A stretch of DNA of 64,000 bases, taken from the sequence record PV357172.2; one strand, written 5' to 3'. Made by a program: the position numbers and the translations under genes. Below the pieces are notes generated by a model, which saw nothing but the letters and a program-made list of their open reading frames with translations, was not told where the DNA came from and did no database searches. This document shows, in pieces, positions 7,583-46,145 of this stretch. The stretch's first letter is position 1. Every line of letters begins with the position of its first letter. Source of the stretch: a phage.

Positions 7583-7588
7583 TGCACT

Positions 7589-7936: not shown

Positions 7937-7944
7937 CAAAATTT

Positions 7945-8027
7945 GGATCTGTGGTGGAATTGGCAATACACACCATGCTTAAAACGTGGCGCTTAAATGA
8001 TTGAGGGTTCGAGCCCCTCCAGATCCA
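7945..8027 (+). tRNA. tRNA-Leu (TAA), long variable arm
   Basis: Acceptor GGATCTG/CAGATCC, anticodon loop CTTAAAA, T-arm GAGGG-TTCGAGC-CCCTC, encoded CCA. Confidence 0.7.
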
Positions 8028-8182
8028 CCAAATTAAGGAAGTAAAAATGAAATCTATTAAGAAAGCACTGCGTAAATTTATGTATTGTCGTTTTCATAGC
8101 ATCAAGGCTTCAACTAATGGTACTACTTACGATCGCTATGATCCTAAGTTTGGCTTACATTCTAAATAACTGGAGAAAACAA

Positions 8183-8389
8183 ATGGCTAATCCTGAAATT
8201 ACGGCACAACGCTTTATGCTGAAAGGAATTATTGCTGAAGCAGGCATGACAGAAGAAGTTGCAGATTTTCAAAAGCAATTCCTCAATATTCTCACTCAAG
8301 CCAAAGAGCTAGGAGAGAAAGAACATGGCGCGGCTATTATGGCAATCACATTGGTTGGGCTTGATCTGGCTGAAGAATCAGGAGTTTAA
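8183..8389 (+). CDS. hypothetical protein
   Basis: ATG 8183 preceded by GGAG; in frame with track ORF 8117-8389. Confidence 0.45.
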   Translation: MANPEITAQRFMLKGIIAEAGMTEEVADFQKQFLNILTQAKELGEKEHGAAIMAITLVGLDLAEESGV

Positions 8390-8419
8390 CTCCTCCAAGC
8401 AGAAATTTTAAAAATGTAC

Positions 8420-8449
8420 TTGCTTTTTACTTAAGATTTCTGCTATAAT
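8420..8449 (+). promoter_or_regulatory. sigma70-like early promoter
   Basis: TTGCTT 8420-8425, TATAAT 8444-8449. Confidence 0.55.
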
Positions 8450-8478
8450 AGTTATATAAGTTGATGAGAGGAATCAGA

Positions 8479-8754
8479 ATGTTAAAACGTTTTGCAGCAA
8501 CTGGTATTGAAAGCTCAGTATGTAAATCCTGGGGTGGTTGGGAAGGTGAGATCGAGTGGCTTTATTTCTACAATGTAGAACTTCTTCCAGAGATCAAAGC
8601 TCAATGTATTGAGGCTGGTATGGCTCCTGATGCTACGGCTGATGTTGAAATCAGCATGAATAAGCTAGAGGGTCGAGTAGTCACTGTTACTGATGAAGGT
8701 GAAGAGGTATTCGAACTTCCATTCACTTTGAAAGTCACTCCTTCATTTGATTAA
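8479..8754 (+). CDS. hypothetical protein
   Basis: ATG 8479 after conserved GATGAGAGG leader; in frame with track ORF. Confidence 0.5.
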   Translation: MLKRFAATGIESSVCKSWGGWEGEIEWLYFYNVELLPEIKAQCIEAGMAPDATADVEISMNKLEGRVVTVTDEGEEVFELPFTLKVTPSFD

Positions 8755-8785
8755 CTGATACAGCACTGAGCAAGTTCTTTAAAAT

Positions 8786-8819
8786 TTGACTTGCTCAGTA
8801 CCTTAAAACTTGGTATAAT
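8786..8819 (+). promoter_or_regulatory. sigma70-like early promoter
   Basis: TTGACT/TTGCTC 8786-8796, TATAAT 8814-8819. Confidence 0.55.
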
Positions 8820-8889
8820 AGTTATCTAATTTGGAAACATATTTAAAAGTATTCAAATACTAGTTTAAACACTTTTAAATGTACATCGT

Positions 8890-8963
8890 TGGCAGAATGG
8901 CTATTGTAGCGGTCTGTAAATCCGTGCCCTTCGGGATTGGTGGTTCGAATCTTACACGGCCCG
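8890..8963 (+). tRNA. tRNA-like element with Tyr-type anticodon loop (CTGTAAA); possible pseudogene
   Basis: GGTTCGAATC T-loop and CCA end are present but acceptor and T-stems do not pair canonically. Confidence 0.2.
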
Positions 8964-9068
8964 CCAAATTCTGTGTAGAGTTAAGTAAACCGGTAGCCAA
9001 CCAGCTATCATTGCTGACATCGAATTCAGCCACAGATACCATTTTCATTAATAACTGAGGAAATAGAT

Positions 9069-9254
9069 ATGACAACTCGTGCAATTGCTCGACTAGAAGC
9101 TGATCGTGATAATCTGATTAATAATATTAAGGTTCGTGGTAATATTATTAAGGCTCTGAAAGCTGAACTTCTTGAAGAACTTCAAGGTCAAGTAGAGCGT
9201 CGTGAAGCTCTAAAAGAGGTTGAGGAAGCTATCGAAAAACTCAAAGCTGAGTAA
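9069..9254 (+). CDS. small coiled-coil protein (61 aa)
   Basis: Track ORF with GAGGAAATAG SD-like sequence. Confidence 0.45.
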   Translation: MTTRAIARLEADRDNLINNIKVRGNIIKALKAELLEELQGQVERREALKEVEEAIEKLKAE

Positions 9255-9257
9255 ATT

Positions 9258-9839
9258 ATGCACGGAATATCCTTACCAATTCCAGGGTTTGAGGAGTACT
9301 TAGTAAGTTTGGATGGGTTAGTATTTAGTATCAAATCAAACAAAATACTAACCCCAATAACCAGTAATTACGGATACTTATCTATACGTCTCCATAAAAA
9401 TGGTCAACAGAGAAATACCGGTGTACATAGGATTTTAGCATGTGCATTTAAGAAATTACCAAGTCTAGACTCTGAACTAGAAGTTGACCATATTAACACA
9501 GACATTACTTATTGGGGTCTTAATAACTTACAAGTGCTCACAAAAGAGCAGCATCTAGAAAAGACTTTAAAAGATAAAGGATTTAGTAAACTAAACCATG
9601 ATAATTGTTGTAAGGATTGTGGTAAAGCTATTTCTTTAAAAGCTGAAAAATGTCAGGAGTGCTCTTCACATAAACCAAAAGATATCTCTATAACTAAAGA
9701 AATAATCGAGGTTACAGTAAGAGAGCTAGGCTGGTCAGGTGCAGGGAGAAAGTTAAGTTATTCAGATAATGGGTTGCGTAAAAGATACACTTCTTTAGGA
9801 GGCAATCCTAAAGAACTTAAAAAGTTAAAGGTACTATAG
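9258..9839 (+). CDS. HNH homing endonuclease
   Basis: LEVDHINTD...NNLQVLTKEQH HNH motif plus C-terminal Cys-rich region; stop codon overlaps the start of tRNA-Asp. Confidence 0.8.
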   Translation: MHGISLPIPGFEEYLVSLDGLVFSIKSNKILTPITSNYGYLSIRLHKNGQQRNTGVHRILACAFKKLPSLDSELEVDHINTDITYWGLNNLQVLTKEQHLEKTLKDKGFSKLNHDNCCKDCGKAISLKAEKCQECSSHKPKDISITKEIIEVTVRELGWSGAGRKLSYSDNGLRKRYTSLGGNPKELKKLKVL

Positions 9840-9901
9840 TCTAACGGTTAGGATACTCCCCTGTCACGGGAGAGGTAGGGTTTCGATTACCCTTAGTACC
9901 G
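9830..9901 (+). tRNA. tRNA-Asp (GTC)
   Basis: Perfect acceptor GGTACTA/TAGTACC, anticodon stem CTCCC/GGGAG, loop CTGTCAC, T-arm AGGGT-TTCGATT-ACCCT, CCA. Confidence 0.85.
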
Positions 9902-9910
9902 CCAAATTAT

Positions 9911-9984
9911 ACATCCATAGCTCAATTGGTTAGAGCTACCGCCTCTTAAGCGGTAGGTTCTAGGTTCAAGTCCTAGTGGGTGTA
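9911..9984 (+). tRNA. tRNA-Lys (CTT)
   Basis: D-stem GCTC/GAGC, anticodon stem ACCGC/GCGGT, loop CTCTTAA, T-arm CTAGG-TTCAAGT-CCTAG, CCA. Confidence 0.85.
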
Positions 9985-10114
9985 CCAAACATCAGAGCAG
10001 CGTGATGTACTGCAAAGACCCAAAGTCCGGGGTGGACTTCTTGATTCAAAGGAGCAGGCACTAATTATCATTCTAGCGTGGTGGAGAGGGGACACCAGCT
10101 TGCCGAGGGTAGAA

Positions 10115-10191
10115 GCTCGTTCGATTCGAGTGAAAGAATGGTTCTCGTAAATCCGCACAAGTGATAGCAGGTTCAAGTCCTGCCTAGATTG
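10115..10191 (+). other. two tRNA-like T-arm elements without canonical acceptor stems
   Basis: GCTCG-TTCGATT-CGAGT and GCAGG-TTCAAGT-CCTGC; no complementary 5' acceptor found. Confidence 0.2.
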
Positions 10192-10200
10192 ACTTATTAT

Positions 10201-10271
10201 GCGTTCGTAGTTAAAAGGTATAATTTTTGGTTGCCAACCAGAAGTTGAGGGTTCGATTCCCTCCGACCGCA
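10201..10271 (+). tRNA. tRNA-Gly (GCC)
   Basis: Anticodon loop TTGCCAA, T-arm GAGGG-TTCGATT-CCCTC, acceptor 6/7 paired, CCA. Confidence 0.75.
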
Positions 10272-10527
10272 CCAAATTTAGGTTTCTGCTTCCTAGAGAA
10301 CGGACTCCTAGATAAACAAGGCGATGAGTTTCCGGCCGGTTCTAGTCGCTGAAAATCCTCCCGACCAGGTAGGTGTAAGTAAATGAAAGTTTACTTATTG
10401 AGTAGGTTCCGATAGACCGGCGGGTCTATTCTGGCATTTAAGAGAGGTCTCGCAAACTTCTTTGTCAGCCGTGGGGTTGGTAGCCTCCAGGTGGCCTACA
10501 CAATAAGTAAATTTATTAAAAATTCAT

Positions 10528-10556
10528 TTGCTATTCTGCTTAATTCTCTGTATAAT
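10528..10556 (+). promoter_or_regulatory. sigma70-like early promoter
   Basis: TTGCTA 10528-10533, TATAAT 10551-10556. Confidence 0.6.
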
Positions 10557-10587
10557 ATATTTTATAAAGTGAGTTAACAAAAATTAA

Positions 10588-10660
10588 CAGTGCGTAGCGC
10601 AGTTGGTAGCGTGGGAGCCTTGGGTGCTTCGGGTCGCAGGTTCGAGTCCTGCCGCACTGA
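10588..10660 (+). tRNA. tRNA-Pro (TGG)
   Basis: Perfect acceptor CAGTGCG/CGCACTG, anticodon loop CTTGGGT, T-arm GCAGG-TTCGAGT-CCTGC, CCA. Confidence 0.85.
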
Positions 10661-10669
10661 CCAAACAAT

Positions 10670-10744
10670 TGCGGGTTAGATCTCTGGTAGAGATCGCTAG
10701 TCTCATAAGCTAGAAAGAGGTAGGTTCGATTCCTGCACCCGCTT
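10670..10744 (+). tRNA. tRNA with CAT anticodon (Met/fMet/Ile2)
   Basis: Anticodon stem CTAGT/GCTAG, loop CTCATAA, T-loop TTCGATT, 1:72 U-U mismatch, CCA. Confidence 0.75.
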
Positions 10745-10921
10745 CCATTTTAATAGAGGATTTCGAAATGAAAGTATTTCGATTAGTAGTAAGTGACAAA
10801 CGGTTAGGTAAGAATACATCAAAATCCTTACTTGCTCATTATGGTAAAAATTGGGATGAAGTAATGGCAGAGTTTAATACTAATCACCCTTACTTGAAAG
10901 TTCACTCTATTAAGGAAGTTT

Positions 10922-11395
10922 ATGCTTATTAACAGGGTGCTTCAAGCTCTAGATCTTCCAGAGCTCTTTACTATTACCGACCCCTTAATACATCGGTATA
11001 TGGAAAAGTATAATGAAATCTCTGGTAAAAAAGGGAAACTAAAATCCTCAGAATTTAAGTTCTGTTATAGAATGGCAGCATTAAACCTCTTAAAGTACAA
11101 GAGGGAGCATAAAATCCCTATAACAGAAGGATTTGTCTATGTAATAGGTAGTCCAGCATGGCCTGGACTATATAAGATAGGTATGACAGTAGATGTGAAT
11201 GAAAGACTGTCTAGTTATCAAACATATTCGCCTTATCGTGATTACAAGTTATACCATTTCAGATTCTCCTCGGACAAGAGAAGAACTGAAAAAGCATTAC
11301 ATAACCTTCTGAAGGACTACAAAGTATCAGGAGAATGGTTTGAAGTACCTCTGTTAGACGCCTTCAAACTATTAGTAGAAAATTTGGATTGCTAA
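10922..11395 (+). CDS. GIY-YIG-like (T5orf172-domain) homing endonuclease
   Basis: GFVYVIGS...YKIGMT...ERLSSY...EWFEV matches the T5orf172 pattern; stop overlaps tRNA-Lys start. Confidence 0.65.
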   Translation: MLINRVLQALDLPELFTITDPLIHRYMEKYNEISGKKGKLKSSEFKFCYRMAALNLLKYKREHKIPITEGFVYVIGSPAWPGLYKIGMTVDVNERLSSYQTYSPYRDYKLYHFRFSSDKRRTEKALHNLLKDYKVSGEWFEVPLLDAFKLLVENLDC

Positions 11396-11460
11396 CTCAA
11401 CTGGATAAGAGTACCGGACCTTTAATCCGTCAGTTCTGGGTTCGAATCCCAGGCAATCCA
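11386..11460 (+). tRNA. tRNA-Lys (TTT)
   Basis: Perfect acceptor GGATTGC/GCAATCC, D-stem ACTC/GAGT, loop CCTTTAA (unusual C33), T-arm CTGGG-TTCGAAT-CCCAG, CCA. Confidence 0.75.
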
Positions 11461-11481
11461 CCAATTTCAAGAAAAACTCAG

Positions 11482-11511
11482 TTGCTTGATGCTTAATTTC
11501 TTGTTATAATA
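11482..11511 (+). promoter_or_regulatory. sigma70-like early promoter
   Basis: TTGCTT 11482-11487, TATAAT 11506-11511. Confidence 0.55.
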
Positions 11512-11748
11512 TTTATATAAATTGATGAGGAGAAATCCTCATCATAGTTCACTAAGGTATTAGCTCGACCTAGGACTGGCTGCCAAAAAGCACGATCCCT
11601 ACGATTTGGGAGAAGTTCTAGATTAGTCCACTAGATTCAGCGGCAACTGAATAGTGTATCGGTTTTGCGAGATGACGCGGTTCCTTCCGCTCGAAGCGAA
11701 GGTGCTGTAGTTACGCCGAGCTAATAGCCTTAGTAAACTAAGGAATTT

Positions 11749-11819
11749 GGGGATATAGTTTAATGGTAGAACATCTGCTTTGCACGCAGAAGACGAGGGT
11801 TCAACTCCCTCTTTCTCCA
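11749..11819 (+). tRNA. tRNA-Ala (TGC)
   Basis: Anticodon stem TCTGC/GCAGA, loop TTTGCAC, T-arm GAGGG-TTCAACT-CCCTC, CCA. Confidence 0.75.
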
Positions 11820-11827
11820 CCAAATTT

Positions 11828-11909
11828 GGGGCTATGCTGGAACTGGTAGACAATACGGCCTTAGATTCCGTAGCTTAAATGCGTGGGAGTTCGAGTCTCC
11901 CTAGCCCCA
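11828..11909 (+). tRNA. tRNA-Leu (TAG), long variable arm
   Basis: Perfect acceptor GGGGCTA/TAGCCCC, anticodon TAG in the loop, T-arm GGGAG-TTCGAGT-CTCCC, CCA. Confidence 0.65.
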
Positions 11910-11928
11910 CCAACTTATAGGGTAATGT

Positions 11929-12513
11929 ATGCAGTTTGTACCAATAAAAGATGCACCAGGGTATTTAGTAAATGAAACAGGGGATGTGTTATCTACATTT
12001 ACTAATAAAATCTTATCAAGATATATAGTTGATGGGTACCCTGCTGTAAAATTACAGATAAATGGTAAGCAAACTTCGGTACTTATACACCGAATTATTT
12101 CTCATGTATTTGGGGACTTATATAATCTATTTGACCCTGAATTAGAAGTAGATCACAAGGATAGAGATAGGCTGAATCTATCTAAAGATAATCTTCAAGT
12201 TTTATCAAAAATAGAACATCAGAAGAAAACTAATAAAGATAATGGATGGTCTGATAGTAGAGTACCTTGCCCCTTATGTGGAAATCTAATGCTTCAGAGA
12301 TCAGTAACATGTACAAATTGTAAGCCAAAACCTACAGGAAAGTTAATAAAACCAGAATTGTCCTTAGAAGACATAACTGAAAAGGTTTTATTAATGGGGT
12401 GGGTTAAGGCAGCTAAAGATCTAGAAGTATCAGAGTCCACTTTACGTAGACGATATACTAAACTAACCGGATTAAGCCCGAAAGTATTAACAGAACAACG
12501 GAAAAGCAAATAG
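11929..12513 (+). CDS. HNH homing endonuclease
   Basis: HRIISHVFG...LEVDHKDRDRLNLSKDNLQVL HNH motif plus CxxC pairs; 3' end overlaps tRNA-Ser. Confidence 0.8.
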   Translation: MQFVPIKDAPGYLVNETGDVLSTFTNKILSRYIVDGYPAVKLQINGKQTSVLIHRIISHVFGDLYNLFDPELEVDHKDRDRLNLSKDNLQVLSKIEHQKKTNKDNGWSDSRVPCPLCGNLMLQRSVTCTNCKPKPTGKLIKPELSLEDITEKVLLMGWVKAAKDLEVSESTLRRRYTKLTGLSPKVLTEQRKSK

Positions 12514-35646: not shown

Positions 35647-35760
35647 CTCGCTTTCGGTGCTAACGGTAAAAGTAGAAATATCAATACCTTTCACCATTTC
35701 CAGCATTGCCGCCACCTGGCCGCCGCGTTGGGTCTTTACTTTAATATTACCCCACAGCGT
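35647..35760 (-). pseudogene. 38-codon gene remnant (3' end only)
   Basis: Open frame between stops encoding ...TLWGNIKVKTQRGGQVAAMLEMVKGIDISTFTVSTESE with no start or RBS; a hairpin and T-run follow on the minus strand. Confidence 0.3.
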
Positions 35761-35935: not shown

Positions 35936-36126
35936 CTTAAATGATAGTGGTTCTCACTAACTAATTTATACAGTTATTATATAACAAAATATAGTTAGTT
36001 GGCTAATAGGATTTTAAAGTGATTATGAGTCTGCTAAGTAAACCTGAAAAACTCATTAGGTAGTCTGCTAATGATTTTGATATAATATAATAGAGATTAA
36101 ACTAATAACATAAGGAAACAATAACA

Positions 36127-36645
36127 ATGGGTCTATTTAAAGATATAGATTATTCGCTTGCTAATGATAACTTTTATTATGATGAAACATCCCCATCATT
36201 TCTAAGATGGAAAGTACAGAAAGGTAATAGTAAGGTGGGGGATATTGCAGGGCATTATAGTAACACAGGTTACTATCGAGTAAAGTTAGCAGGCGAACAA
36301 TACGCAGTGCATAGAATAATATGGGTATTATTTAATGGTGAGATTGATAGCAATCTAACAATCGATCATAATGATCGTAACCGTGCTAATAATAACATTA
36401 ATAATCTTCGCTTAGTAGATCATAAGCAGAATACGAATAACAAGAAAGATTATAAGCGTGCTAATAAGTTGCCTAAGCATATCTATTATAATGGTTCTAG
36501 AGTTGATAATAACGGAAGAAACTATTTGCGCGCTATAGTTAAAGATCCTACTAGTAACAAAAGTGTTAGTAAATCAGGTTATGATTTACAAGAGTTATTA
36601 TTATGGGTAGAAACTAAAAAAGCTGAATTTGGGATTGTCAATTAA
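36127..36645 (+). CDS. HNH homing endonuclease
   Basis: HRIIWVLFNGEIDSNLTIDHNDRN...NNLRLVDHKQN HNH motif. Confidence 0.8.
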   Translation: MGLFKDIDYSLANDNFYYDETSPSFLRWKVQKGNSKVGDIAGHYSNTGYYRVKLAGEQYAVHRIIWVLFNGEIDSNLTIDHNDRNRANNNINNLRLVDHKQNTNNKKDYKRANKLPKHIYYNGSRVDNNGRNYLRAIVKDPTSNKSVSKSGYDLQELLLWVETKKAEFGIVN

Positions 36646-37033
36646 TTTATTTTATAAATTAACGCAATGCCACTTGATTTTAAAAAGTCAATACCTTTTC
36701 CAACTATTTTTCAATTTTGCTTTTGTTAAATATTTGTTAAATCGAAAATGGGCCGCCTAAAACGCCCTAGAAAGCGGTAAAATTTTCAGGTATGCCATTG
36801 CATTGCCTACCCTCGTTTATCGCTACCACGAGCTTTCTAGATTTTGTCAATATCCCCAAAGCAAATATAAATGAAAAAATTACTTGCCTATCTGCTTGGT
36901 TTTATGGTATTCACGCGCCCGTTCCTTTTAATTTAGGTGAGCGCCGCACGCCGTCCGGTGAAACTGTATTAGCCATATTGCTAATAATTTTGGTATAATA
37001 TAATAACCAAATGAAACTAATAGGAGAATATTA

Positions 37034-37375
37034 ATGATTGAGCTAACAAAAGATATTGATTTAGAAACTGTGCTAGATAATCTTTACTATGATGAAACTA
37101 GTCCCAGTTGCCTACGGTGGAAAGTATCCCGCCCCGGTTGCGCCCTTCATGGGGTAGCAGGTACTAAAAGAAAGGATGGTTACTGGTCTGTACAGCTCAA
37201 TAAAGAGCGTTACCTAGCGCATCGTATCGTGTGGTTATTATTTAATTATAAAATAGATAGCAAACTAGTAATTGATCATATTGATCGTAACCCTAGTAAT
37301 AATTTTATTGATAACTTACGGTTAGTAACTCAAGCCGAAAACAACCAAAATAAGGGAGGCTATAGAAAGGCGTAA
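37034..37375 (+). CDS. HNH homing endonuclease (short paralog)
   Basis: HRIVWLLFNYKIDSKLVIDHIDRN...DNLRLVTQAEN; upstream leader similar to that of 36127. Confidence 0.75.
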   Translation: MIELTKDIDLETVLDNLYYDETSPSCLRWKVSRPGCALHGVAGTKRKDGYWSVQLNKERYLAHRIVWLLFNYKIDSKLVIDHIDRNPSNNFIDNLRLVTQAENNQNKGGYRKA

Positions 37376-37616
37376 AACTTACGTTTCTTTACAAAAATAA
37401 GGTTGCGCCCTTTTCGGGAATCTCCTATTATTTATCACGTAGGGCGGCAATGACGAACTACACGGCGGGAAGTTTACCGCCGCGCTCTTTAAAAATTGGG
37501 TACATCTTAAAGCCTATCGGCGGTAAACTTATTCATTATAAGGAATCGACGATATGAAACAAACTTTATTGATCACTGGCAAGCCTAGCAAGGCACTAGA
37601 TAGCAAAACAAAAAAT

Positions 37617-37650
37617 TTGTTGACAGTAGCGCAAAATTCTGTAAAATGGC
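37617..37650 (+). promoter_or_regulatory. near-consensus sigma70 promoter (TTGACA, about 17 bp, TAAAAT)
   Basis: Lies inside track ORF 37554-37757, which I regard as non-coding; a second TTGACA-type promoter sits at about 37745-37775. Confidence 0.5.
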
Positions 37651-37986
37651 GATTCAAGCAATATTTGCAAGGTCGCCAGCAAGGTTTAGAAATGATCTGG
37701 CGAAACATTATGATTGACCTGAAGGAAAATCATAAAAAATCTCAAAAAATTGTTTGACAGCCTAGCCGATAGGTTTTAAGATGTACCCAGTTCGAAAAGA
37801 GCGATAACTTGATAAAATTTGACGGTCGGCACTTACCATAATGTGCCCCGCCCCCTAACGGGATATAGCGGCCTACGTGGAGTTCTTTAAATTGATTATA
37901 TTGGCGAGCGGATTGTTACTTATTACCTGCTGTTACTTTCTAGCAGGTAATGCGGAACAATCCCCAAATAACTAGGAGTTTATATT

Positions 37987-38238
37987 ATGAAAAACGTTAT
38001 TACCGCGCCTAAAATTGGTCAATCCGTTTTCATCCCTTTCGTTACTAAAACGGATGAATTAACCGGAAAAGCCGAGCGCATCAAAGGCGCAGCGCTTATG
38101 CCATTTGATACAATCGACGCGGTATACGCTGAAACGGAACGAAGTAACAACGGAAAAACTATTTACAGCGTTCGGGTTAAATCCGGCGACGTTGTAAAGG
38201 TTGTTCAACGCAACGAAAAATGGGAAGCTGTATTGTAA
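37987..38238 (+). CDS. hypothetical pre-early-region protein (83 aa)
   Basis: AGGAG SD; followed by hairpin ATCCCCC...GGGGGAT. Confidence 0.5.
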   Translation: MKNVITAPKIGQSVFIPFVTKTDELTGKAERIKGAALMPFDTIDAVYAETERSNNGKTIYSVRVKSGDVVKVVQRNEKWEAVL

Positions 38239-38336
38239 TTTAGTGTTAACTTTATATCCCCCAGTAGTTCGGGGGATATAACGATTAACATTATGTTAAT
38301 CTAATCCCTTAAATTAAACTAATAGGAGTTTTTACC

Positions 38337-38744
38337 ATGACTAACGCAAAAACCGCAAAATTCGCATGGAATGAAGAAAACACTCAGAAAGCTGTTACCA
38401 TGTACCAGCAGTTAATCAACGAAAACGGTTTAGATTTTGCAAATAGCGACGGCCTGAAAGAGATTGCAAAAGCAGTAGGCGCGGCTTCTCCTGTGTCTGT
38501 TCGCTCAAAATTGACCAGTGCAAAAGCCTATCAAAAAAGCGATAAGCCGCGTAAAGTTGGCGGCGGTAGTTCAATCCGTAAAGCGCATTATGTGCGAGTA
38601 ATTGCAAAACACGCTATCGATTCCGGCATTATCAAAGACGCCGATGATCTGGCAAGCCTTGAAAGTGCTAAACTGGAAACGCTGGACGCAGTAGCGCAAC
38701 TGTTAGGCGTTGCCGATGAAGTAAAACAGGCCGCAGGTGAATAA
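38337..38744 (+). CDS. hypothetical pre-early-region protein (135 aa)
   Basis: AGGAG SD; followed by hairpin GCCCCCT...AGGGGGC. Confidence 0.5.
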   Translation: MTNAKTAKFAWNEENTQKAVTMYQQLINENGLDFANSDGLKEIAKAVGAASPVSVRSKLTSAKAYQKSDKPRKVGGGSSIRKAHYVRVIAKHAIDSGIIKDADDLASLESAKLETLDAVAQLLGVADEVKQAAGE

Positions 38745-38832
38745 TTATATACCTTGCCCCCTTTAGTGAGGGGGCAATAATATAACTGTTTAGCGATAGT
38801 TGTTATCTTCCCTTAAATCAGGAGTTTTAAAA

Positions 38833-39030
38833 ATGATTTTCTTTCCTACTGAGTCATTAATTTTAGGCTTGTTTATTATGGCGGCCTCGTTATTGTTCGC
38901 TTATTTTCAAAATGATTTAGATTCATATTATTTTAAACGTAAATCTAAATTAGCAAAACGTTTAGGTCTGCTTTGTTTTATCGCTGCCGTTGCTTGTGGT
39001 GTTAGTTCTAGCCTAGTGCCTTTAAATTAA
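38833..39030 (+). CDS. small membrane protein
   Basis: ATG 38833 after AGGAG; hydrophobic. Confidence 0.45.
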   Translation: MIFFPTESLILGLFIMAASLLFAYFQNDLDSYYFKRKSKLAKRLGLLCFIAAVACGVSSSLVPLN

Positions 39031-39120
39031 TGTTGCAAATTATAACGCCTATTGTTCGAGGCGTTATATTTGGCAATATTGCCGTTATTAACCTAATCCC
39101 TTTAATGGAGCTTTATTACT

Positions 39121-40791
39121 ATGATTATTTCCGCAGAAAAACAAACCGTTATCCTGAAAATGGCCGCTGACTTTAATTTCTATGGTAAACGTCTGCGCGC
39201 TACTAAACTGGAGGTCTGCGACGATATATCAAAAGCAGTCTACGATACAACGAAACATTCCACCGCCATTTGTGATTGGCTGGAAGCAAACAAACCAGCG
39301 AAACCAAAAGCGGCAAAAGTAGCAAAAGCCATTAAAAACGATGAGCGCCCCGAAGCGGCGGGGATTGTTTCTAGCACGGTTGAACAGTGGGAAGTAAAAC
39401 AGGGTAAACGCTTTATTATTACGTCGATTCAGAATAATACTTTCCCGCATAAAAACTTTTTAGCCTCGCTTGAACAATTTGCTAAATATATCGGCGCTGA
39501 TTTGCTTGTTTCTAAGTATATTTATAATAAAAACGGTTTTCAAAATGGCGAGGGCGCGGATGGAATAAAGTATGATTCCGCGTTCGATAAATATATTTGC
39601 AGCAAAAACGTGTTTTTACATAACCGCCGTTTTGCTTTCATGGCTGAAATTAATGTTTTGCCAACCGCAGATTATCCGCTTTCTGGATTCGCAGAAACTG
39701 CTACCGCGCTCAATATTGAAGGGCTGGCAATTGGTCACGCTAAAATTACCGCCGAAAGCGTGCCAGCTTTAAAAGGTGAAGTAGTGCGCCGTATGTATTC
39801 AACCGGAACGGCAACGCTCAAAAACTACATTCAGCAGAAAGCAGGACAAAAGGCCGAGGCGCTGCATAACTTCGGTGCGCTTATTGTTGAGTTCGATGAT
39901 GATGGGGAATTTTTTGTTCGCCAGCTTGAAACAATGGACGAAAGCGGGGTGTTTTATGATCTGAATGTTTGCGCTACTCCTGCCGGATGCTATGAAACAT
40001 CGGGGCATGTTTTAGGCTTGCAGTATGGCGATATTCACGCCGAAAAATTAGATGAGGAGTGCGCCGCCGCATCTTGGGGGCATGGTGATACCTATGGGCT
40101 AGTAGATATTCTTAAACCAAAATATCAGTTTGTGCATGACGTGCATGATTTTACATCGCGCAATCATCATAACCGCGCATCCGGTGTATTCCTAGCGAAA
40201 CAGTATGCCGCCGGACGTGATAAAGTTCTGGATGATCTTATCGATACCGGTCGCGTGCTGGAATCAATGGAACGTGATTTTAGTCAAACAATCATTGTTG
40301 AATCGAATCACGATTTGGCGCTATCCCGTTGGCTTGATGATCGTAATGCTAACATTAAGGACGATCCCGCCAACGCCGAACTATATCACCGCCTGAATGC
40401 TGCGATTTACGGAGCTATTGCAGAAAAAGACGACACCTTCAACGTGCTAGATTATGCGCTGCGCAAGGTTGCAGGTTGTGAATTTAACGCCATTTTCCTA
40501 ACGACTGACCAATCTTTCAAGATTGCAGGTATTGAATGCGGCGTACACGGTCACAATGGCATTAACGGGAGCCGTGGCAATCCGAAACAATTTAAGAAAT
40601 TGGGCAAATTAAACACCGGACACACTCATACCGCCAGCATTTACGGCGGCGTTTATACCGCTGGCGTGGCTGGTAGTCTGGATATGGGTTACAACGTTGG
40701 CGCGTCAAGCTGGACACAAACGCATTTAATTACCTATGCAAACGGTCAACGCACTTTGATTGACTTTAAAAACGGTAAATTCTTTGCGTAA
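39121..40791 (+). CDS. A1: A1-like pre-early protein, Mre11/SbcD-type metallophosphatase nuclease (556 aa)
   Basis: Metallophosphatase motifs GDIHA, ESNHD, GHNG and GHTHT; length equals T5 A1 as I recall it. Confidence 0.65.
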   Translation: MIISAEKQTVILKMAADFNFYGKRLRATKLEVCDDISKAVYDTTKHSTAICDWLEANKPAKPKAAKVAKAIKNDERPEAAGIVSSTVEQWEVKQGKRFIITSIQNNTFPHKNFLASLEQFAKYIGADLLVSKYIYNKNGFQNGEGADGIKYDSAFDKYICSKNVFLHNRRFAFMAEINVLPTADYPLSGFAETATALNIEGLAIGHAKITAESVPALKGEVVRRMYSTGTATLKNYIQQKAGQKAEALHNFGALIVEFDDDGEFFVRQLETMDESGVFYDLNVCATPAGCYETSGHVLGLQYGDIHAEKLDEECAAASWGHGDTYGLVDILKPKYQFVHDVHDFTSRNHHNRASGVFLAKQYAAGRDKVLDDLIDTGRVLESMERDFSQTIIVESNHDLALSRWLDDRNANIKDDPANAELYHRLNAAIYGAIAEKDDTFNVLDYALRKVAGCEFNAIFLTTDQSFKIAGIECGVHGHNGINGSRGNPKQFKKLGKLNTGHTHTASIYGGVYTAGVAGSLDMGYNVGASSWTQTHLITYANGQRTLIDFKNGKFFA

Positions 40792-40847
40792 TTAAATTAT
40801 TCCCCTAGCGGCTTGAAATATAGCCGCTATTATAGGAGCTAAATTAA

Positions 40848-41105
40848 ATGAAAGTTACATTACCCAAAACATTGGACGAAAAAGTATTTATTTCACCGGA
40901 TGAAATGGAATCTGATAAAGTTTACAGCTTCGGGCCTATCCTAGCCGCCAAAACTAATACGGATGGTATTATTTCCGTCGATTCCCGTGATAACGATATT
41001 GTTCCTTTTGATGATGATGGCGCTTTTTATGAGTGGCTAAGCGATAATAATTTACCCGTAAACGGTGAATTAACGCCATACCAGATGCAGATTATTATCA
41101 AATAA
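40848..41105 (+). CDS. hypothetical protein (85 aa)
   Basis: Track ORF with AGGAG SD. Confidence 0.5.
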   Translation: MKVTLPKTLDEKVFISPDEMESDKVYSFGPILAAKTNTDGIISVDSRDNDIVPFDDDGAFYEWLSDNNLPVNGELTPYQMQIIIK

Positions 41106-41143
41106 ATTAAATCCATTATTAAACTAATTGGAGTTTTATAAAT

Positions 41144-41536
41144 ATGAAAAAGCAAAATATTCCCTTCGATCGCGCTCAGTCCTCAATTGTTCTGGTTTAT
41201 TCCAACGGCGAACGTTACCACGTCGAGGCTGGACACGTTATTGATGACCTATTAGATTTCAATGACGCTTTGCAGGTTACTACCTTTGCATATACGCAGG
41301 GCAAACTAACCAGCCATATTAAAGCAAAAGGCGTTTATGTTGACACGGTGAAACAAGAAACGATTATCATCGACGCCGTAAAATCCGGCCTAGCCTTTGC
41401 AGTTGTCGCGCCTTGCCTCGCTTGCCTTGATGATCAATTGATTAGTGCAAAGGTCTACACATGTGCGGGGATTCGTTCTAGCGTATCCGGTGAGGATGTT
41501 AGTTTTATCGCTGATGCGTTGGCTTATGGTCTTTAA
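41144..41536 (+). CDS. A2 candidate (130 aa)
   Basis: Size and position next to the A1-like gene only. Confidence 0.35.
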   Translation: MKKQNIPFDRAQSSIVLVYSNGERYHVEAGHVIDDLLDFNDALQVTTFAYTQGKLTSHIKAKGVYVDTVKQETIIIDAVKSGLAFAVVAPCLACLDDQLISAKVYTCAGIRSSVSGEDVSFIADALAYGL

Positions 41537-41616
41537 TAGTTGATTTATTATTGCCCGCTTATAAATAGCGGGTAATGCTGAATTAATCTAATCCCTTAAA
41601 TGGAGAACGTAACAAA

Positions 41617-42351
41617 ATGAATCAAGTTAAAACGAATATTACCCGTAATTTCCCGCATATTTCCCGCGTCATGATTTGGGATCTTGATGGCACTATCGTT
41701 AATTCATTCCATCGTGTCGCGCCTTGCTTTGATAGCGACGGGAATTTAAATTTAAATAAGTATAAAAATGAGGCTTGCAAACATGATTTAATAATGCAAG
41801 ATACTTTATTGCCTTTGGTGGAATATATGCGCCAATGCATGAATGACGCAAATACTTTAAACATTATTTGCACCGCTCGACTGATGAGCAAATCAGACTA
41901 TTATTATTTGCGTAAACAAGGATTGCGCGGGCGTGGTGATAGTAATATCCGTGTATTTTCCCGCGATACACTGCATAAATATTTTGAGGCTGATAAGGTT
42001 AGCGAAATATACCACAGCAAAGACGCAGTTTATAAATCGTATTATTTTGAGCTATTCAAACAACTATATCCGAACGCTGATTTTACAATGATTGATGATC
42101 ATAAAGGTGTATTATCAGCGGCAGCGTCATACGGATTTAAAACGCTGGACGCGCAAGCCGTTAATGATATTCTATCAATCGGCGTGGCATTGATAGGCGG
42201 AACCTTTATTGATGAATCTCTCGATGATGATAATGATTATCAGTTCCTAGCGGACCGATTGAAATTATGTTGGGAAAGTATGACCGAGGAAGAACGCGCA
42301 GAATATAGTTGCAGCCCGCAACAATATATTGAGAAATTAAAAGTTGCGTAA
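41617..42351 (+). CDS. dmp: HAD-superfamily phosphatase, Dmp-like 5'-deoxyribonucleotidase (244 aa)
   Basis: HAD motif I DLDGT and motif IV IDDH; same length as T5 Dmp as I recall it. Confidence 0.6.
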   Translation: MNQVKTNITRNFPHISRVMIWDLDGTIVNSFHRVAPCFDSDGNLNLNKYKNEACKHDLIMQDTLLPLVEYMRQCMNDANTLNIICTARLMSKSDYYYLRKQGLRGRGDSNIRVFSRDTLHKYFEADKVSEIYHSKDAVYKSYYFELFKQLYPNADFTMIDDHKGVLSAAASYGFKTLDAQAVNDILSIGVALIGGTFIDESLDDDNDYQFLADRLKLCWESMTEEERAEYSCSPQQYIEKLKVA

Positions 42352-42513
42352 TAATTAAAGTTGAAATAGTCACGGTGTGTAATGATAACATGCCGTGACT
42401 ATTAGCTTGCTAAGTACCGGGCGGTAATGAGACTCATTCTCATCTGGGGGGCCACTGCACCCACCCACGCGTACGTAATCCAAAGAATTTGGCAAAAGTC
42501 ATTTTAGTGCTAA

Positions 42514-43053
42514 TTAACTGTTTAATTGGGCAACGTCTGGTATACTTCCTTTGAACATCTCCTGTATTGCAAAGTCACCATGAAATGTCCTTCTTAGTAA
42601 ATTTGCATAATTTACGGCATCTTCTAATCCGCTATAGGGAAAGTACTTAGTAGTACCCCTTATCAGCCCCTGTTTATCATGTAATCTTACCATCCACTTC
42701 TGAAGTTCTTTATGCCATGTAACATTTAGATAGCCTGATGATGCTCTTGAGATTCTGCCATTATGATTATTCTCTGTAATTGAAGCCTCTCTTAAATTTG
42801 ACCATCTATTATTTAGTTTATTCCTATCTATGTGGTCTACACATTCCTCTGGCCATCTATTCTCCATAATAACAAAAGCTACTTGATGTGCATAAGCTTT
42901 AAACCCTCGATACTTAAGCTGCCTATATCCCCTATTTAAAGTACCTGCTTCTTTACCCTTACGATTGCCTCTTTTCCAGGTAAAAACTCCGGTTTCGGGA
43001 TCATAAGCAAATACTTCTTGTATTTCCTGTATGTTTAAATTATTCTTCATCAC
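42514..43053 (-). CDS. HNH homing endonuclease
   Basis: HQVAFVIMENRWPEECVDHIDRNKLNNRWSNLRE HNH motif. Confidence 0.75.
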   Translation of the reverse strand: MMKNNLNIQEIQEVFAYDPETGVFTWKRGNRKGKEAGTLNRGYRQLKYRGFKAYAHQVAFVIMENRWPEECVDHIDRNKLNNRWSNLREASITENNHNGRISRASSGYLNVTWHKELQKWMVRLHDKQGLIRGTTKYFPYSGLEDAVNYANLLRRTFHGDFAIQEMFKGSIPDVAQLNS

Positions 43054-43285
43054 TCACCTTTGCCCGAAATCTCTTCCGCGACGCCCGAGATCCATCCGAC
43101 CACTCCCGCTCAAACTCCGCACGTTTCTCGTCAAACTTCCGCTCCCTTTCCGCAATCTTCCGCTCCCTTTCCGCAATCTCCCGCGATACTTCCGCAGTAT
43201 ACTTACGATGCTTGTTAATAGCCGCAGTCATTCCGAAAACTCCCGCAAGTACCCCGATAATAAAAGCAATTATAATACTAAACAT
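43040..43285 (-). CDS. small membrane protein with charged repeat tail (81 aa)
   Basis: N-terminal TM helix then IAERERK repeated, encoded by a 21-bp tandem DNA repeat (about 43140-43185). Confidence 0.5.
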   Translation of the reverse strand: MFSIIIAFIIGVLAGVFGMTAAINKHRKYTAEVSREIAERERKIAERERKFDEKRAEFEREWSDGSRASRKRFRAKVSDEE

Positions 43286-43472
43286 CTAATTCCCTCTCAA
43301 TTTGCAGAATACGGGTACTATCACAACGTTGGAGTTCTACTAATTTTTCTAGAGCAAATTGTTGTTGTTTTACCTGAGCTTCTAGAGTTTTTAGGCGAAC
43401 ATACGCGTTATAAGAAACAATGAAAGTTGCCCAGACTAGTATTACTATTAGTGTAGCTACTACTTCCATCAT
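43278..43472 (-). CDS. TM plus coiled-coil small protein (64 aa), paralog family
   Basis: ATGATG start overlaps the upstream stop. Confidence 0.5.
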   Translation of the reverse strand: MMEVVATLIVILVWATFIVSYNAYVRLKTLEAQVKQQQFALEKLVELQRCDSTRILQIERELDV

Positions 43473-43576
43473 TTACGTTTCTCCGTTAGTAAAGTTTCAA
43501 TTCTAGCTAAGTGATTATCTAAAATACATTGCCCAATAATCATAATTCCCAGTAATGAAATAATTACCCATTCCAT
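43469..43576 (-). CDS. TM plus coiled-coil mini-protein (35 aa), paralog
   Basis: MEWVII...ARIETLLTEKRK, same N- and C-terminal signatures as the 61-aa neighbour; below track cutoff. Confidence 0.4.
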   Translation of the reverse strand: MEWVIISLLGIMIIGQCILDNHLARIETLLTEKRK

Positions 43577-43761
43577 TATTTACGCTCCTCTAATAAAGTT
43601 TCAATTCTAGATAACCTATTACTCAACTGCATTAATTTAACCTCTACTTGGGTTACAGAGGTATCTATTACACGTAAGCCTACAAAGAGAAGTATCAGTA
43701 GGATGAATATGCCAATAATTACCCATTCCATTAAATCCACCCCGCCATAGCTGCTAACCAA
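43576..43761 (-). CDS. TM plus coiled-coil small protein (61 aa), paralog
   Basis: ...MEWVIIGIFILLILL...RIETLLEERK. Confidence 0.5.
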   Translation of the reverse strand: MVSSYGGVDLMEWVIIGIFILLILLFVGLRVIDTSVTQVEVKLMQLSNRLSRIETLLEERK

Positions 43762-43922
43762 AAACCTACGAAGATTAGGAATAATACAAAACCAAATCCG
43801 TAAATATTAATCCACGCTTCGTACACTTCTCCGCGTCTGTTCTTTCTTTTGTTTGACATATCTTTCCTGCTCCTATAAATATAGTATTTGGAATATTTTA
43901 TAATTTGCGCATAGCCAACCAT
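43731..43922 (-). CDS. small protein with C-terminal TM helix (63 aa)
   Basis: Basic N-terminus, hydrophobic C-terminus; first gene of the minus-strand array. Confidence 0.45.
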   Translation of the reverse strand: MVGYAQIIKYSKYYIYRSRKDMSNKRKNRRGEVYEAWINIYGFGFVLFLIFVGFWLAAMAGWI

Positions 43923-44035
43923 GCTCGTGATTTCCTAGAAGGGCTTTTCACTTTCTTGCATAGTGTTTTCTGCTAGTACACCATCCAAGAAATAAAAAAT
44001 TTAGTTTACTTGGATGTCTTTTTGCTTTATACTAA

Positions 44036-44302
44036 TTACAAGTAATTAGATTGCTCTAGTTTAAATTTACAATCACCATATTTAAGGTCAAACTGACTGA
44101 GATCCCACCATCCAAACTTAGTACGGAGCTGTACTACTGGAAAGCGATCTCCCTTAATACGAACTTTTTGAACCTTGAGACCGTAATGTTCTTCTCCCTC
44201 ACCACCAAAAGATTTTACAAATCCAGTACAAAATGGTTTGGGAGCAGGTGCACAACCAGATAACATAACTGCGGCAACTAGTGTAATCACAAACTTTTTC
44301 AT
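44036..44302 (-). CDS. llp: Llp-like lipoprotein (receptor-blocking candidate)
   Basis: Signal peptide with lipobox LSGC; divergent from the RBP gene as llp is from oad in T5. Confidence 0.6.
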   Translation of the reverse strand: MKKFVITLVAAVMLSGCAPAPKPFCTGFVKSFGGEGEEHYGLKVQKVRIKGDRFPVVQLRTKFGWWDLSQFDLKYGDCKFKLEQSNYL

Positions 44303-44387
44303 ATTTATCTCTCCATTTCTAATTTATGAATATATTATAGCAAAATAGAGAGATGAAAGCAAATACATTTTTATAATAGGAGATTAT

Positions 44388-46145
44388 ATGGGTTTTTTCG
44401 CTGGAAAATATAGCGATGGTAAGACCGTACTATCTTTAAATACTGAATCTGGTGGTGACATTAATCGTCACTATAGTCCAAATACCAATAGTATTTTTCA
44501 TAGTGATATGCCATTTGTCCTAGTTGATGGTACTTATGAGTCTGGGTTAGGTGATGCCGGTAATGGGTTTTTTGTATGTCAGATGCCCTCTGACATAATA
44601 AATATTAAATCCAATGACCCCGGTAGAGTTATATTAACTGCTATTGAGATTAATGGTACTCACAGAGCTTTTCTTAATGGTACTCAGAGTAAGGTGGGTC
44701 AAACTATAGTTGCCACTCAAGCAGATCCTTTTAGATCTTTTGCTAGTGTTTCCCAGACTAGTGGATTTGCATTTGGTAATAGCCTGGCATCTGGTACATA
44801 TAACTATAATCCATCTATAGGGCATGAAGAATCTATTTCTAGGAATGGTACAGGGGGTACTACCTTACATAGTACGTATCATGGTATAGTTAGGCCGGGT
44901 GCAGGAGCTCCAGTAGGTATTACTGTTGCAGAAGCTTTTGCACAGTTAGGATTCCCTACTAATAGTAGTACAGTACCTATAGATGGTAATAACCAATATT
45001 ACTGGGACCCAGGATGGATGTCTCCTTTAGGATCAGCACACAGAGGGCACGATTGGTTTTATGTTTGTAACTCTAACATACGTGGGTATGGTGGGGTAAG
45101 ACAAGGTCTTCCTGGTAATGTAAATACTATGTATCATGATGGAGGTAACAGATTTGTTTGTAGGGGGTCTACAACTAATTTAGCTAACCAATCTGGTAAC
45201 GCTACAATATTACAGGATTGGTATAACATAACCCCTACTAAAGTTATTTGGTATGTTCTGAATTTAAGATACTCAAATGGTGGTATGAGTATCTCTGGTA
45301 ATCCTTTTACTGGTTCAGATATTCTTATATCTCCTTCTAATTTCATAATTAAAGGGGTTAGTCTTCCCAATACTGGATACAAGTTTATTAACCAGAACGC
45401 TTTTGGTAACTTAGGTTATAGACCAGATATGGAGTATATAGGAAATAACGCAGCGTATACCGGGGTTTTTGGGGATACCACGGCAAGGTGTGAACTTGTA
45501 GGATCTAGTAATGGGGGTTTGTGGTCTCCTGTAGATTATGGAGGGGCTAAATCTCAAATTAGTATTTATAAATTCGGAGCTGGTAAGCAATGGTATGTAA
45601 ACTCTAGGGATAATACTATCGGTAATGAACACGGGGTTGTTTGGGGACCATCAGCAGTTCCATTACGACTTTTTGGTGGAAATGTAGGTAGCTCTTACAT
45701 GGGGGATGATATTACTCCCAGCTACCCGGGAACAGGGGATAGATACGTTGGTTTATCAACTATTGGGCTAGGTATACCGGGTGGCAATGCTACAGTAATT
45801 CTTACCACTGAAGTTATATCAGGTAACCTTAACTGTGCAGGTGTTCCTGCTAATACATGGAATAACGGTGTGTTTCAAGTGCAAGGAAGAAGAGCATATA
45901 GCTATAGTAATGGAGATGCAATATTCCACCAGATTTTAACATTACCAGTAGGGTATTTAGTACCTTTTCATACTACATCTGCTTTTAGATACACACCTAA
46001 CAATGCCCTAAGTAGAAATAGTTTTATATACACTGCTAAAAATCTGGGGAATGGAAATGTAGAGTTAGGGGTAGTTATGCACGTAAGTTTAGGTAGTGCA
46101 GTTTTCCTACCGAGATTAAGAGTAACAGTTCAACGCCTTACCTAA
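44388..46145 (+). CDS. receptor-binding protein, pb5-like (585 aa)
   Basis: N-terminus [17 protein letters not shown]...SGGDINRH...IFHSDM resembles T5 pb5 as I recall it; position upstream of terminase. Confidence 0.6.

What the first reader, a model, noticed from the sequence alone, without database searches (positions are those of the whole stretch)
39121..42351. A1-like metallophosphatase nuclease, A2 candidate and Dmp-like HAD phosphatase
The 556-aa ORF carries the full set of calcineurin/Mre11-type metallophosphatase motifs and matches the length of T5 A1, the protein required for host DNA degradation and second-step DNA transfer. A 130-aa ORF and a 244-aa HAD phosphatase follow. Each gene is followed by a GC-rich hairpin. 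The gene order (A1, 85-aa ORF, 130-aa ORF, Dmp-like) may differ from T5.
Basis: partly seen in the sequence, partly recalled or inferred. Interest (0 to 1): 0.5.

Follow-up and report, generated by a model that had tools for sequence, protein, structure and literature searches.

The report
T5-type pre-early genes A1 to dmp

Summary
The window is a Tequintavirus (T5-like phage), and 39121-42351 is the distal part of its left pre-early (first-step-transfer) operon.

- **A1:** the 556-aa ORF is A1, 96.9% identical to T5 A1 at the same length.
- **Dmp:** the 244-aa ORF is Dmp, 95.9% identical to T5 Dmp.
- **A2 claim is wrong:** the 130-aa ORF is T5.002 (92% identical) and has no similarity to A2. 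The real A2 is the 135-aa ORF at 38337-38744, 99.3% identical to T5 A2 and upstream of the reported interval.
- **Gene order claim is wrong:** the order does not differ from T5 (A2, 005, A1, 003-slot, 002, dmp). Only the 003 slot differs in content. An unrelated 85-aa ORF sits there, and this type occurs in more phage records than T5.003 does.
- **Hairpins:** stable hairpins follow A1, the 130-aa ORF and dmp, but not the 85-aa ORF. None has a terminator T-tract.

All of this is already annotated in hundreds of phage genomes and covered in recent T5 literature. Interest is low.

The parts
37620..37647 (+). Sigma-70 promoter (TTGACA-16-TAAAAT), positional and sequence homolog of T5 promoter P-H22. 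It lies inside the hdi/T5.008 homolog and is the likely driver of the operon.
   Evidence: The promoter scan scores it 11/12. It aligns to T5 4799-4873, which is annotated as promoter P-H22. The P-D/E20 region maps to 37808-38130 at 89.6% identity.
37987..38238 (+). T5.007 homolog (83 aa, DUF7177), first small gene of the operon.
   Evidence: 90% identical to T5.007. PF23801 at E 3e-43.
38337..38744 (+). The true A2 gene (135 aa DNA-binding protein required for second-step transfer). It lies outside the finding's coordinates.
   Evidence: 99.3% identical to T5.006/A2 over 135 aa. phrog_1725 'DNA binding protein' at E 1e-51. Annotated as A2 in relatives.
38833..39030 (+). T5.005 homolog (65-aa protein with two transmembrane segments). 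The ATG at 38833 is the likely start, not the TTG at 38800.
   Evidence: 95% identical to T5.005 over 65 aa, from ORF residue 12 onward. A GGAG ribosome-binding site precedes 38833. phrog_4820 'membrane protein'.
39121..40791 (+). A1 (556 aa). The model has an N-terminal helical domain (~1-60), a low-confidence linker (~61-85), a conserved beta-rich middle domain (~86-295) and a C-terminal metallophosphoesterase domain (~296-556).
40806..40829 (+). Hairpin after A1 (8-bp GC-rich stem TAGCGGCT/AGCCGCTA, 8-nt loop, no T-tract).
   Evidence: spacer z = -3.1. It is sequence-conserved in T5, IrisVonRoten and MET_P1, and the only change within it is in the loop.
40848..41105 (+). 85-aa ORF occupying the gene-003 slot. 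It is unrelated to T5.003 and its function is unknown.
   Evidence: No BLAST similarity to T5.003. T5 1380-1647 has no DNA match in the window. phrog_8297 at E 1.7e-50. tblastn finds it in 183 phage records at 35-100% identity, against 33 records for T5.003.
41144..41536 (+). T5.002 homolog (130 aa, unknown function, dispensable in T5).
   Evidence: 92% identical to T5.002. No similarity to A2. phrog_4576. The family is confined to T5-like phages. The 002 deletion is viable in T5.
41549..41577 (+). Hairpin after the T5.002 homolog (11-bp stem around GCCCGCT/AGCGGGT, 7-nt loop). It sits inside a longer stem spanning 41537-41590.
   Evidence: -25.8 kcal/mol, z = -5.7, and 0 of 200 shuffles fold as well. 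The stem is conserved and the loop varies in relatives.
41588..41601 (+). CTAATCCCTTAAAT element immediately upstream of the dmp ribosome-binding site. Exact copies also lie at 38301-38314 (before A2) and 39093-39106 (before A1).
   Evidence: three exact copies, all in this operon; the same three places in T5, each with one mismatch; degenerate versions precede the T5.007-like and T5.005-like genes.
41617..42351 (+). dmp, the deoxynucleoside-5'-monophosphatase (244 aa, HAD superfamily). It is the last gene before the genome end.
   Evidence: 95.9% identical to T5 Dmp. HAD motifs I-IV are invariant. AF2 pLDDT 81.8. The top 49 Foldseek PDB hits are HAD phosphatases, including the T4 Pnkp phosphatase domain.
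42358..42408 (+). Long hairpin closing the operon after dmp.
   Evidence: -28.6 kcal/mol, z = -4.9, and 0 of 200 shuffles fold as well. T5 and two relatives carry a different sequence at the same place that also forms a hairpin.

Best explanation
The interval is the promoter-distal part of the left pre-early operon of a T5-like phage. This operon lies in the terminal-repeat DNA that enters the cell first.

Transcription. By homology, transcription starts from the conserved strong promoters upstream: the P-H22 homolog at 37620-37647 and the P-D/E20 region. It then runs through the T5.007 homolog, A2, the T5.005 homolog, A1, the 85-aa ORF, the T5.002 homolog and dmp, toward the physical left end of the genome.

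A1. A1 carries a C-terminal two-metal phosphoesterase domain of the Mre11/SbcD/PolD-DP1 type. It is the factor that destroys the host chromosome within minutes, most likely by acting directly as a metal-dependent DNase. Together with the DNA-binding protein A2, encoded upstream, it is needed for the rest of the phage genome to enter.

Dmp. Dmp is a HAD-type phosphatase that uses an aspartyl-phosphate mechanism. It converts the released dNMPs to deoxynucleosides, which leave the cell.

Small ORFs. The 85-aa and 130-aa ORFs are accessory pre-early genes of unknown function.

Shown here: orthology, motifs, folds, synteny and the hairpins. Taken from T5 literature: the in-vivo roles. Inferred: that A1 itself cuts DNA.
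For: - Orthology: A1, A2, Dmp, T5.002, T5.005 and T5.007 are 90-99% identical to T5 at the protein level, and the gene order is identical to the T5 record.
- DNA relatives: 467 phage records match, and 376 of them cover at least 80% of the query. Annotations include A1, A2, Dmp and DNA transfer protein.
- A1 active-site residues are invariant across 30 homologs that go down to 43% identity. None of the 17 differences from T5 A1 falls on an invariant column.
- Dmp has invariant HAD motifs and a HAD fold.
- Literature: A1 is necessary and sufficient for host DNA degradation in vivo, A1 and A2 are essential, and dmp enhances virulence (bioRxiv 10.64898/2026.04.02.716235). The order dmp, A1, A2 is conserved in all T5-like phages (bioRxiv 10.1101/866236).
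- Promoter P-H22 is conserved.
Against: - No sequence-based library recognises A1 as a metallophosphatase.
- In-vitro nuclease activity of A1 had not been reported as of the 2026 preprint. That preprint explicitly keeps open the possibility that A1 activates a host nuclease.
- How phage DNA escapes A1 is unknown.
- The hairpins lack T-tracts, so their role is untested. They could be terminators, processing sites or stability elements.
Confidence: 0.9

Rival explanations
1. A1 has the metallophosphoesterase fold but is not itself the DNase. It would act as a phosphatase, phosphodiesterase or scaffold that activates or redirects a host nuclease, and its roles in second-step transfer and transcription shut-off would come from protein-protein contacts with A2, RNA polymerase and the membrane.
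For: - The 2026 T5 preprint states this alternative and notes that no in-vitro nuclease activity has yet been shown.
Against: - All metal-ligand motif residues are invariant across the family, unlike the inactive B subunits.
- The best structural matches are true nucleases: PolD DP1 exonuclease, Mre11 and SbcD.
- A1 alone is sufficient for chromosome loss in E. coli.
Confidence: 0.15
2. One reading: the 130-aa ORF downstream of A1 is the A2 gene, and the gene order is rearranged relative to T5.
For: Only the similar size (130 aa against 135 aa).
Against: - The 130-aa ORF is 92% identical to T5.002 and has no similarity to A2 (E 4.7).
- A 99.3% identical A2 lies at 38337-38744.
- The order is the same as in T5 and its relatives.
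Confidence: 0.01
3. The hairpins after A1, the T5.002 homolog and dmp are rho-independent terminators that make each gene its own transcription unit.
For: - The hairpins are stable, GC-rich and non-random, and they sit directly after stop codons.
- They are conserved in relatives.
- The hairpin after dmp keeps its structure although its sequence is replaced.
Against: - None is followed by a T-run, and none is called by the terminator scan.
- Each internal hairpin is followed within 20-40 nt by the next gene's ribosome-binding site, with no strong promoter between them.
- This fits read-through, with the hairpins serving as RNA stability or processing elements. Only the hairpin after dmp sits where an operon end is expected.
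Confidence: 0.25

Closest known systems
Bacteriophage T5 A1 (T5.004, YP_006832; PHROG 1745 'DNA transfer protein')
   Same: - Same length (556 aa) and 96.9% identical.
- Same neighbours and the same position in the pre-early terminal repeat.
- All conserved motif residues are kept.
   Different: There are 17 conservative substitutions: 13 in the middle domain and none at invariant columns. At position 206 the window has the family-consensus H where T5 has A.
Bacteriophage T5 Dmp (T5.001, deoxynucleoside-5'-monophosphatase)
   Same: - 244 aa and 95.9% identical.
- It is the last gene before the left genome end.
- The HAD motifs are intact.
   Different: There are ten substitutions, none at invariant positions. 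The hairpin after the gene has a different sequence from T5's but the same structure.
Mre11/SbcD nucleases and the PolD DP1 proofreading exonuclease (calcineurin-like metallophosphoesterase superfamily)
   Same: - Two-metal phosphoesterase core with motifs DxH, (G)DxxD, (G)NH(D/E), H and GHxH.
   Different: - Only 12-16% identical.
- No Pfam PF00149 hit was found.
- Motif II reads HDxxD rather than GDxxD, and there is an extra invariant NHH at 348-350.
- No Rad50/SbcC partner gene is adjacent.
- It has its own N-terminal helical domain and ~200-residue middle domain.
- It works with the small DNA-binding protein A2.
T4 polynucleotide kinase/phosphatase 3'-phosphatase domain and class B acid phosphatase AphA (HAD superfamily)
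   Same: - The Dmp model superposes on these structures with Foldseek probability 1.00.
- PHROG 415, the family Dmp falls in, is labelled 'polynucleotide kinase'.
   Different: - No kinase domain is present.
- Identity is only 11-19%.
- Per the T5 literature, the substrate is free dNMPs rather than DNA ends.
- Residues ~190-244 form a low-confidence helical C-terminal tail.
T5.002 and T5.003 (pre-early genes of unknown function)
   Same: The 130-aa ORF is T5.002 (92% identical). The 85-aa ORF sits exactly in the T5.003 slot between A1 and 002.
   Different: The 85-aa protein has no detectable similarity to T5.003. It belongs to PHROG 8297 and occurs in more phage records than the T5.003 type, 183 against 33.

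Membership tests
T5 A1 protein family (PHROG 1745) | Full-length sequence homology to T5 A1 | tested here: met
   96.9% identical over 556/556 aa. phrog_1745 at E 2.6e-244, covering residues 8-555.
T5 A1 protein family (PHROG 1745) | Location in the pre-early (first-step-transfer) terminal-repeat region, between A2/005 and dmp | tested here: met
   Colinear with T5 105-12000. Same order as the T5 annotation.
T5 A1 protein family (PHROG 1745) | Required for host DNA degradation and second-step DNA transfer | not testable with these tools
   Known for T5 only from genetics. It needs infection experiments with an A1 mutant of this phage.
Calcineurin-like metallophosphoesterase superfamily (Pfam PF00149 clan) | Significant match to the family's sequence profile | tested here: not met
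   No Metallophos hit at E <= 0.1 in Pfam. None in NCBIfam. PDB phmmer and profile searches find no metallophosphatase.
Calcineurin-like metallophosphoesterase superfamily (Pfam PF00149 clan) | Five metal-ligand and catalytic motifs in order: DxH, GDxxD, GNH[DE], H, GHxH | tested here: met
   D304-x-H306, D340-xx-D343, N396-H397-(D398), H476 (H478) and H501-x-H503 are invariant in 30 homologs. The G of motif II is replaced by an invariant H339.
Calcineurin-like metallophosphoesterase superfamily (Pfam PF00149 clan) | Beta-alpha-beta-alpha-beta sandwich phosphoesterase fold | tested here: met
Mre11/SbcD nuclease family | Partner Rad50/SbcC ATPase gene adjacent, and an Mre11 capping domain | tested here: not met
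   The neighbours are a 65-aa membrane protein and an 85-aa ORF. The best structural match is PolD DP1 rather than Mre11. Resemblance is at superfamily level only.
Mre11/SbcD nuclease family | Mn2+-dependent exo/endonuclease activity | not testable with these tools
   Not yet shown in vitro even for T5 A1.
HAD (haloacid dehalogenase-like) phosphatase superfamily | Motifs I (DxDxT), II (T/S), III (K) and IV (DD) | tested here: met
   D22-L-D24-G-T26, T86, K140 and D160-D161 are invariant in 18 homologs.
HAD (haloacid dehalogenase-like) phosphatase superfamily | Rossmannoid HAD fold | tested here: met
   AF2 pLDDT 81.8, with the core above 90. The top 49 Foldseek PDB hits are HAD enzymes, at probability 0.94-1.00 and E 3e-4 to 1e-2.
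HAD (haloacid dehalogenase-like) phosphatase superfamily | Match to a curated sequence profile | tested here: inconclusive
   The local Pfam and NCBIfam copies give no hit. The profile search of the PDB gives only weak matches to the motif-I region of HAD proteins (E 0.07-0.19). Homologs carry a precomputed PF26880 label whose name I could not check.
T5 Dmp (deoxynucleoside-5'-monophosphatase) | Full-length homology to T5.001, and position as the terminal gene of the left repeat | tested here: met
   95.9% identical over 244/244 aa. The T5 left end aligns about 110 nt downstream of its stop codon.
T5 Dmp (deoxynucleoside-5'-monophosphatase) | Hydrolysis of 5'-dNMPs to deoxynucleosides | not testable with these tools
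   Established for T5 in the literature. An enzyme assay is required here.
   BLASTP of the 130-aa ORF against the window's A2 gives E 4.7. The 130-aa ORF is 92% identical to T5.002. The true A2 is at 38337-38744.

The most novel reading that the evidence does not exclude
Each gene boundary in the pre-early operon may carry a dedicated intercistronic cassette. It consists of a stable hairpin without a T-tract, then a conserved CTAATCCCTT(A/T)AAT box just upstream of the Shine-Dalgarno sequence. Exact copies of the box precede only A2, A1 and dmp, the three genes that matter for infection. The cassette could be an undescribed RNA processing, stability or translation-enhancer device that secures the very fast, high-level expression of these proteins from first-step-transfer DNA. 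Separately, the A1-002 intergenic slot (gene 003) may be a swappable accessory-gene site.
Probability: 0.2. Interest if true: 0.35.

Novelty: already known. Interest (0 to 1): 0.1.

Why it matters
The result matters little beyond correct annotation. The locus confirms that this phage carries the canonical T5 host-takeover module, so T5 findings on A1, A2 and Dmp can be transferred to it directly. The open questions are general T5 questions, and this window adds no new leverage on them. They are whether A1 is itself the DNase, how phage DNA is spared, and what A1 and A2 do at second-step transfer. The useful corrections concern gene assignment: A2 is upstream of the reported interval, the 130-aa ORF is T5.002, and only the 003 slot varies in content.

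Tried and rejected
- Pfam, NCBIfam, PDB phmmer and a 30-sequence profile against the PDB were run for A1. None found a metallophosphatase. The best profile hit, 3-dehydroquinate dehydratase at E 0.0014, matches a short 'SNH..AL..WL' stretch and I judged it spurious.
- The Dmp profile against the PDB gave only weak HAD hits at motif I and a spurious levoglucosan kinase hit.
- An exhaustive HMMER search with the 130-aa protein found only T5-like relatives plus weak multi-stretch hits to two giant repetitive proteins (P0223, P0224). Their Pfam content (Ig-like, fn3, LTD) gave no usable lead, so I treated those hits as compositional.
- An Rfam scan of 36000-44500 at E <= 1 found nothing.
- I considered Dmp as a counter-measure to defence systems that sense dNMPs. 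The Metis system senses m6dAMP and is itself a metallophosphatase plus a HAD phosphatase. The Metis preprint reports protection against T5, so I did not pursue the idea.
- The terminator scan found no canonical intrinsic terminator in the relevant intergenic spacers.
Full report
**What is there.** ORF listing confirms four + strand ORFs at exactly the stated coordinates: 39121-40791 (556 aa), 40848-41105 (85 aa), 41144-41536 (130 aa) and 41617-42351 (244 aa). A megablast of 38700-42600 against GenBank phages finds 467 records. Of these, 376 cover at least 80% of the query, at 80-95% identity. Nearly all are Salmonella or Escherichia T5-like phages, and their annotations include 'A1 protein', 'A2 protein', 'DNA transfer protein' and 'deoxynucleoside-5'-monophosphatase'. 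The window is therefore a Tequintavirus genome segment.

**Gene-by-gene identity with T5.** I took the reference T5 annotation (NC_005859) and ran BLASTP of the window ORFs against the T5 pre-early proteins.
- 556 aa = A1/T5.004, 96.9% identical over the full length.
- 244 aa = Dmp/T5.001, 95.9% identical.
- 130 aa = T5.002, 92% identical.
- 135 aa at 38337-38744 = A2/T5.006, 99.3% identical.
- 38833-39030 = the T5.005 membrane protein, 95% identical.
- 37987-38238 = T5.007, 90% identical.
- The 85-aa ORF has no hit to T5.003, and direct BLASTP finds no alignment.

Read on the transcribed strand, T5's order is 007, A2, 005, A1, 003, 002, dmp. The window has the same slots in the same order, as do IrisVonRoten and MET_P1_179_112. 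The real A2 lies upstream of the reported interval, and the suggested difference in gene order does not exist. A 2020 comparative study states that all T5-like phages carry dmp, A1 and A2 in this order at the left end (10.1101/866236).

**The one real difference from T5.** T5 bases 1380-1647 (gene 003) have no DNA counterpart in window 40850-41096, although both flanks align. The replacement 85-aa ORF belongs to PHROG 8297. tblastn finds it in 183 phage records at 35-100% protein identity, which argues for a real gene. T5.003 is found in only 33 records. This agrees with the report that 003 occurs in fewer than 15% of Demerecviridae (10.64898/2026.04.02.716235).

**Is A1 a metallophosphatase?** Sequence libraries do not say so.
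- Pfam and NCBIfam return nothing relevant.
- phmmer and a 30-sequence profile against all PDB sequences return no phosphoesterase.

In an alignment of 30 homologs (43-90% identical, drawn from at least 785 hits), the invariant columns include G303-D304-x-H306, H339-D340-xx-D343, N348-H349-H350, S395-N396-H397, H476-G477 and H501-x-H503. None of the window's 17 differences from T5 A1 touches an invariant column.

An AlphaFold2 model built on this alignment is confident (pLDDT 86.8, pTM 0.79).
- Full-length Foldseek against the PDB ranks metallophosphatases first, but with non-significant scores (best E 0.066).

This matches the 2026 preprint's statement that A1 resembles nucleases of double-strand-break repair and polymerase proofreading. 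The model also shows three further parts: an N-terminal helical domain (~1-60), a low-confidence linker, and a conserved beta-rich middle domain (~86-295). Some distant homologs carry HTH Pfam domains at the N-terminus.

**Is the 244-aa protein a HAD phosphatase?** In 18 homologs (42-89% identical), D22-L-D24-x-T26, T86, K140 and D160-D161 are invariant. These are the four HAD motifs. The AF2 model has pLDDT 81.8, with the core above 90. Foldseek returns HAD enzymes for the top 49 hits at probability about 1. They include the T4 Pnkp phosphatase domain, AphA and XMP phosphatase. This also explains the PHROG label 'polynucleotide kinase'.

**Hairpins.** I folded each intergenic spacer against dinucleotide-preserving shuffles.
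- After A1: z = -3.1.
- After the 130-aa ORF: z = -5.7.
- After dmp: z = -4.9.
- Also non-random after T5.007, A2 and T5.005.
- After the 85-aa ORF: nothing (z = -0.3).

The claim therefore holds for three of the four genes. None of the hairpins has a T-tract, and the terminator scan calls none of them. The hairpins after A1 and after 002 are conserved in sequence, with changes concentrated in the loops. The hairpin after dmp has a different sequence from T5's but the same hairpin potential at the same place, which suggests selection on the structure. Rfam has no match in the region.

**How it works.** The T5 promoter P-H22 is conserved at 37620-37647 (TTGACA-16-TAAAAT), and the P-D/E20 region maps to 37808-38130. 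The genes are therefore most likely co-transcribed toward the genome end.

From the T5 literature:
- A1 is necessary and sufficient for chromosome degradation in vivo.
- dmp enhances virulence.
- Genes 002, 005 and 007 are dispensable.

It remains an inference that A1 itself cleaves DNA. In-vitro activity had not been reported, and activation of a host nuclease is the stated alternative.

**Verdict.** This is a correct recognition of a textbook module, with one misassigned gene (A2), one unfounded suggestion (gene order) and one over-generalised observation (the hairpins). Nothing here departs from known T5 biology. Novelty: already known. Interest: low.

Noticed in passing
window 38301-38314, 39093-39106, 41588-41601 (degenerate copies near 37959 and 38808): A conserved box, CTAATCCCTT(A/T)AAT, sits between the post-gene hairpin and the Shine-Dalgarno sequence of A2, A1 and dmp. 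The three exact copies in the 64-kb window are all here. T5 has the same box at the same three places, each with one mismatch. Its function is unknown.
   Followed up: partly
window ~42461, and 42371-43064: The physical left end of T5 (base 1) aligns to about window 42461. Homology to the T5 region just before the right terminal repeat resumes at 43065. The window therefore looks like an assembly with the terminal repeat collapsed or circularly permuted, with the repeat spanning roughly 32.3 kb to 42461.
   Followed up: partly
window 42514-43053 (- strand): A 179-aa HNH homing-endonuclease ORF lies just outside the inferred terminal-repeat boundary. MET_P1_179_112 has it (annotated hegJ_3), but T5 and IrisVonRoten do not.
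   Followed up: partly
window 37034-37375: An extra 113-aa HNH-like ORF resembles the N-terminal part of HegG. It lies in a ~430-bp insertion between the hegG homolog (36127-36645) and the hdi/T5.008 homolog (37554-37757), and T5 has no counterpart at that spot.
   Followed up: no
window ~35700-35711: T5 pre-early gene 011 (1011 nt, reported toxic in E. coli) appears to be absent. T5 6345 and 7449 map to adjacent window positions.
   Followed up: no
window 39121-39300 (A1 residues 1-60): The N-terminus of A1 models as a small helical domain. In distant A1 homologs the equivalent region carries HTH Pfam domains (PF13384, PF13936, PF04218, PF02796), which hints at DNA binding.
   Followed up: no
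window 44036-44302 (-) and 44388-46145 (+): The ORFs next to the pre-early block match genes that relatives annotate as superinfection-exclusion protein and receptor-binding tail protein. T5's receptor-binding protein Pb5/oad gene shows no DNA alignment to the window, so the receptor-binding protein is a different type from T5's.
   Followed up: no
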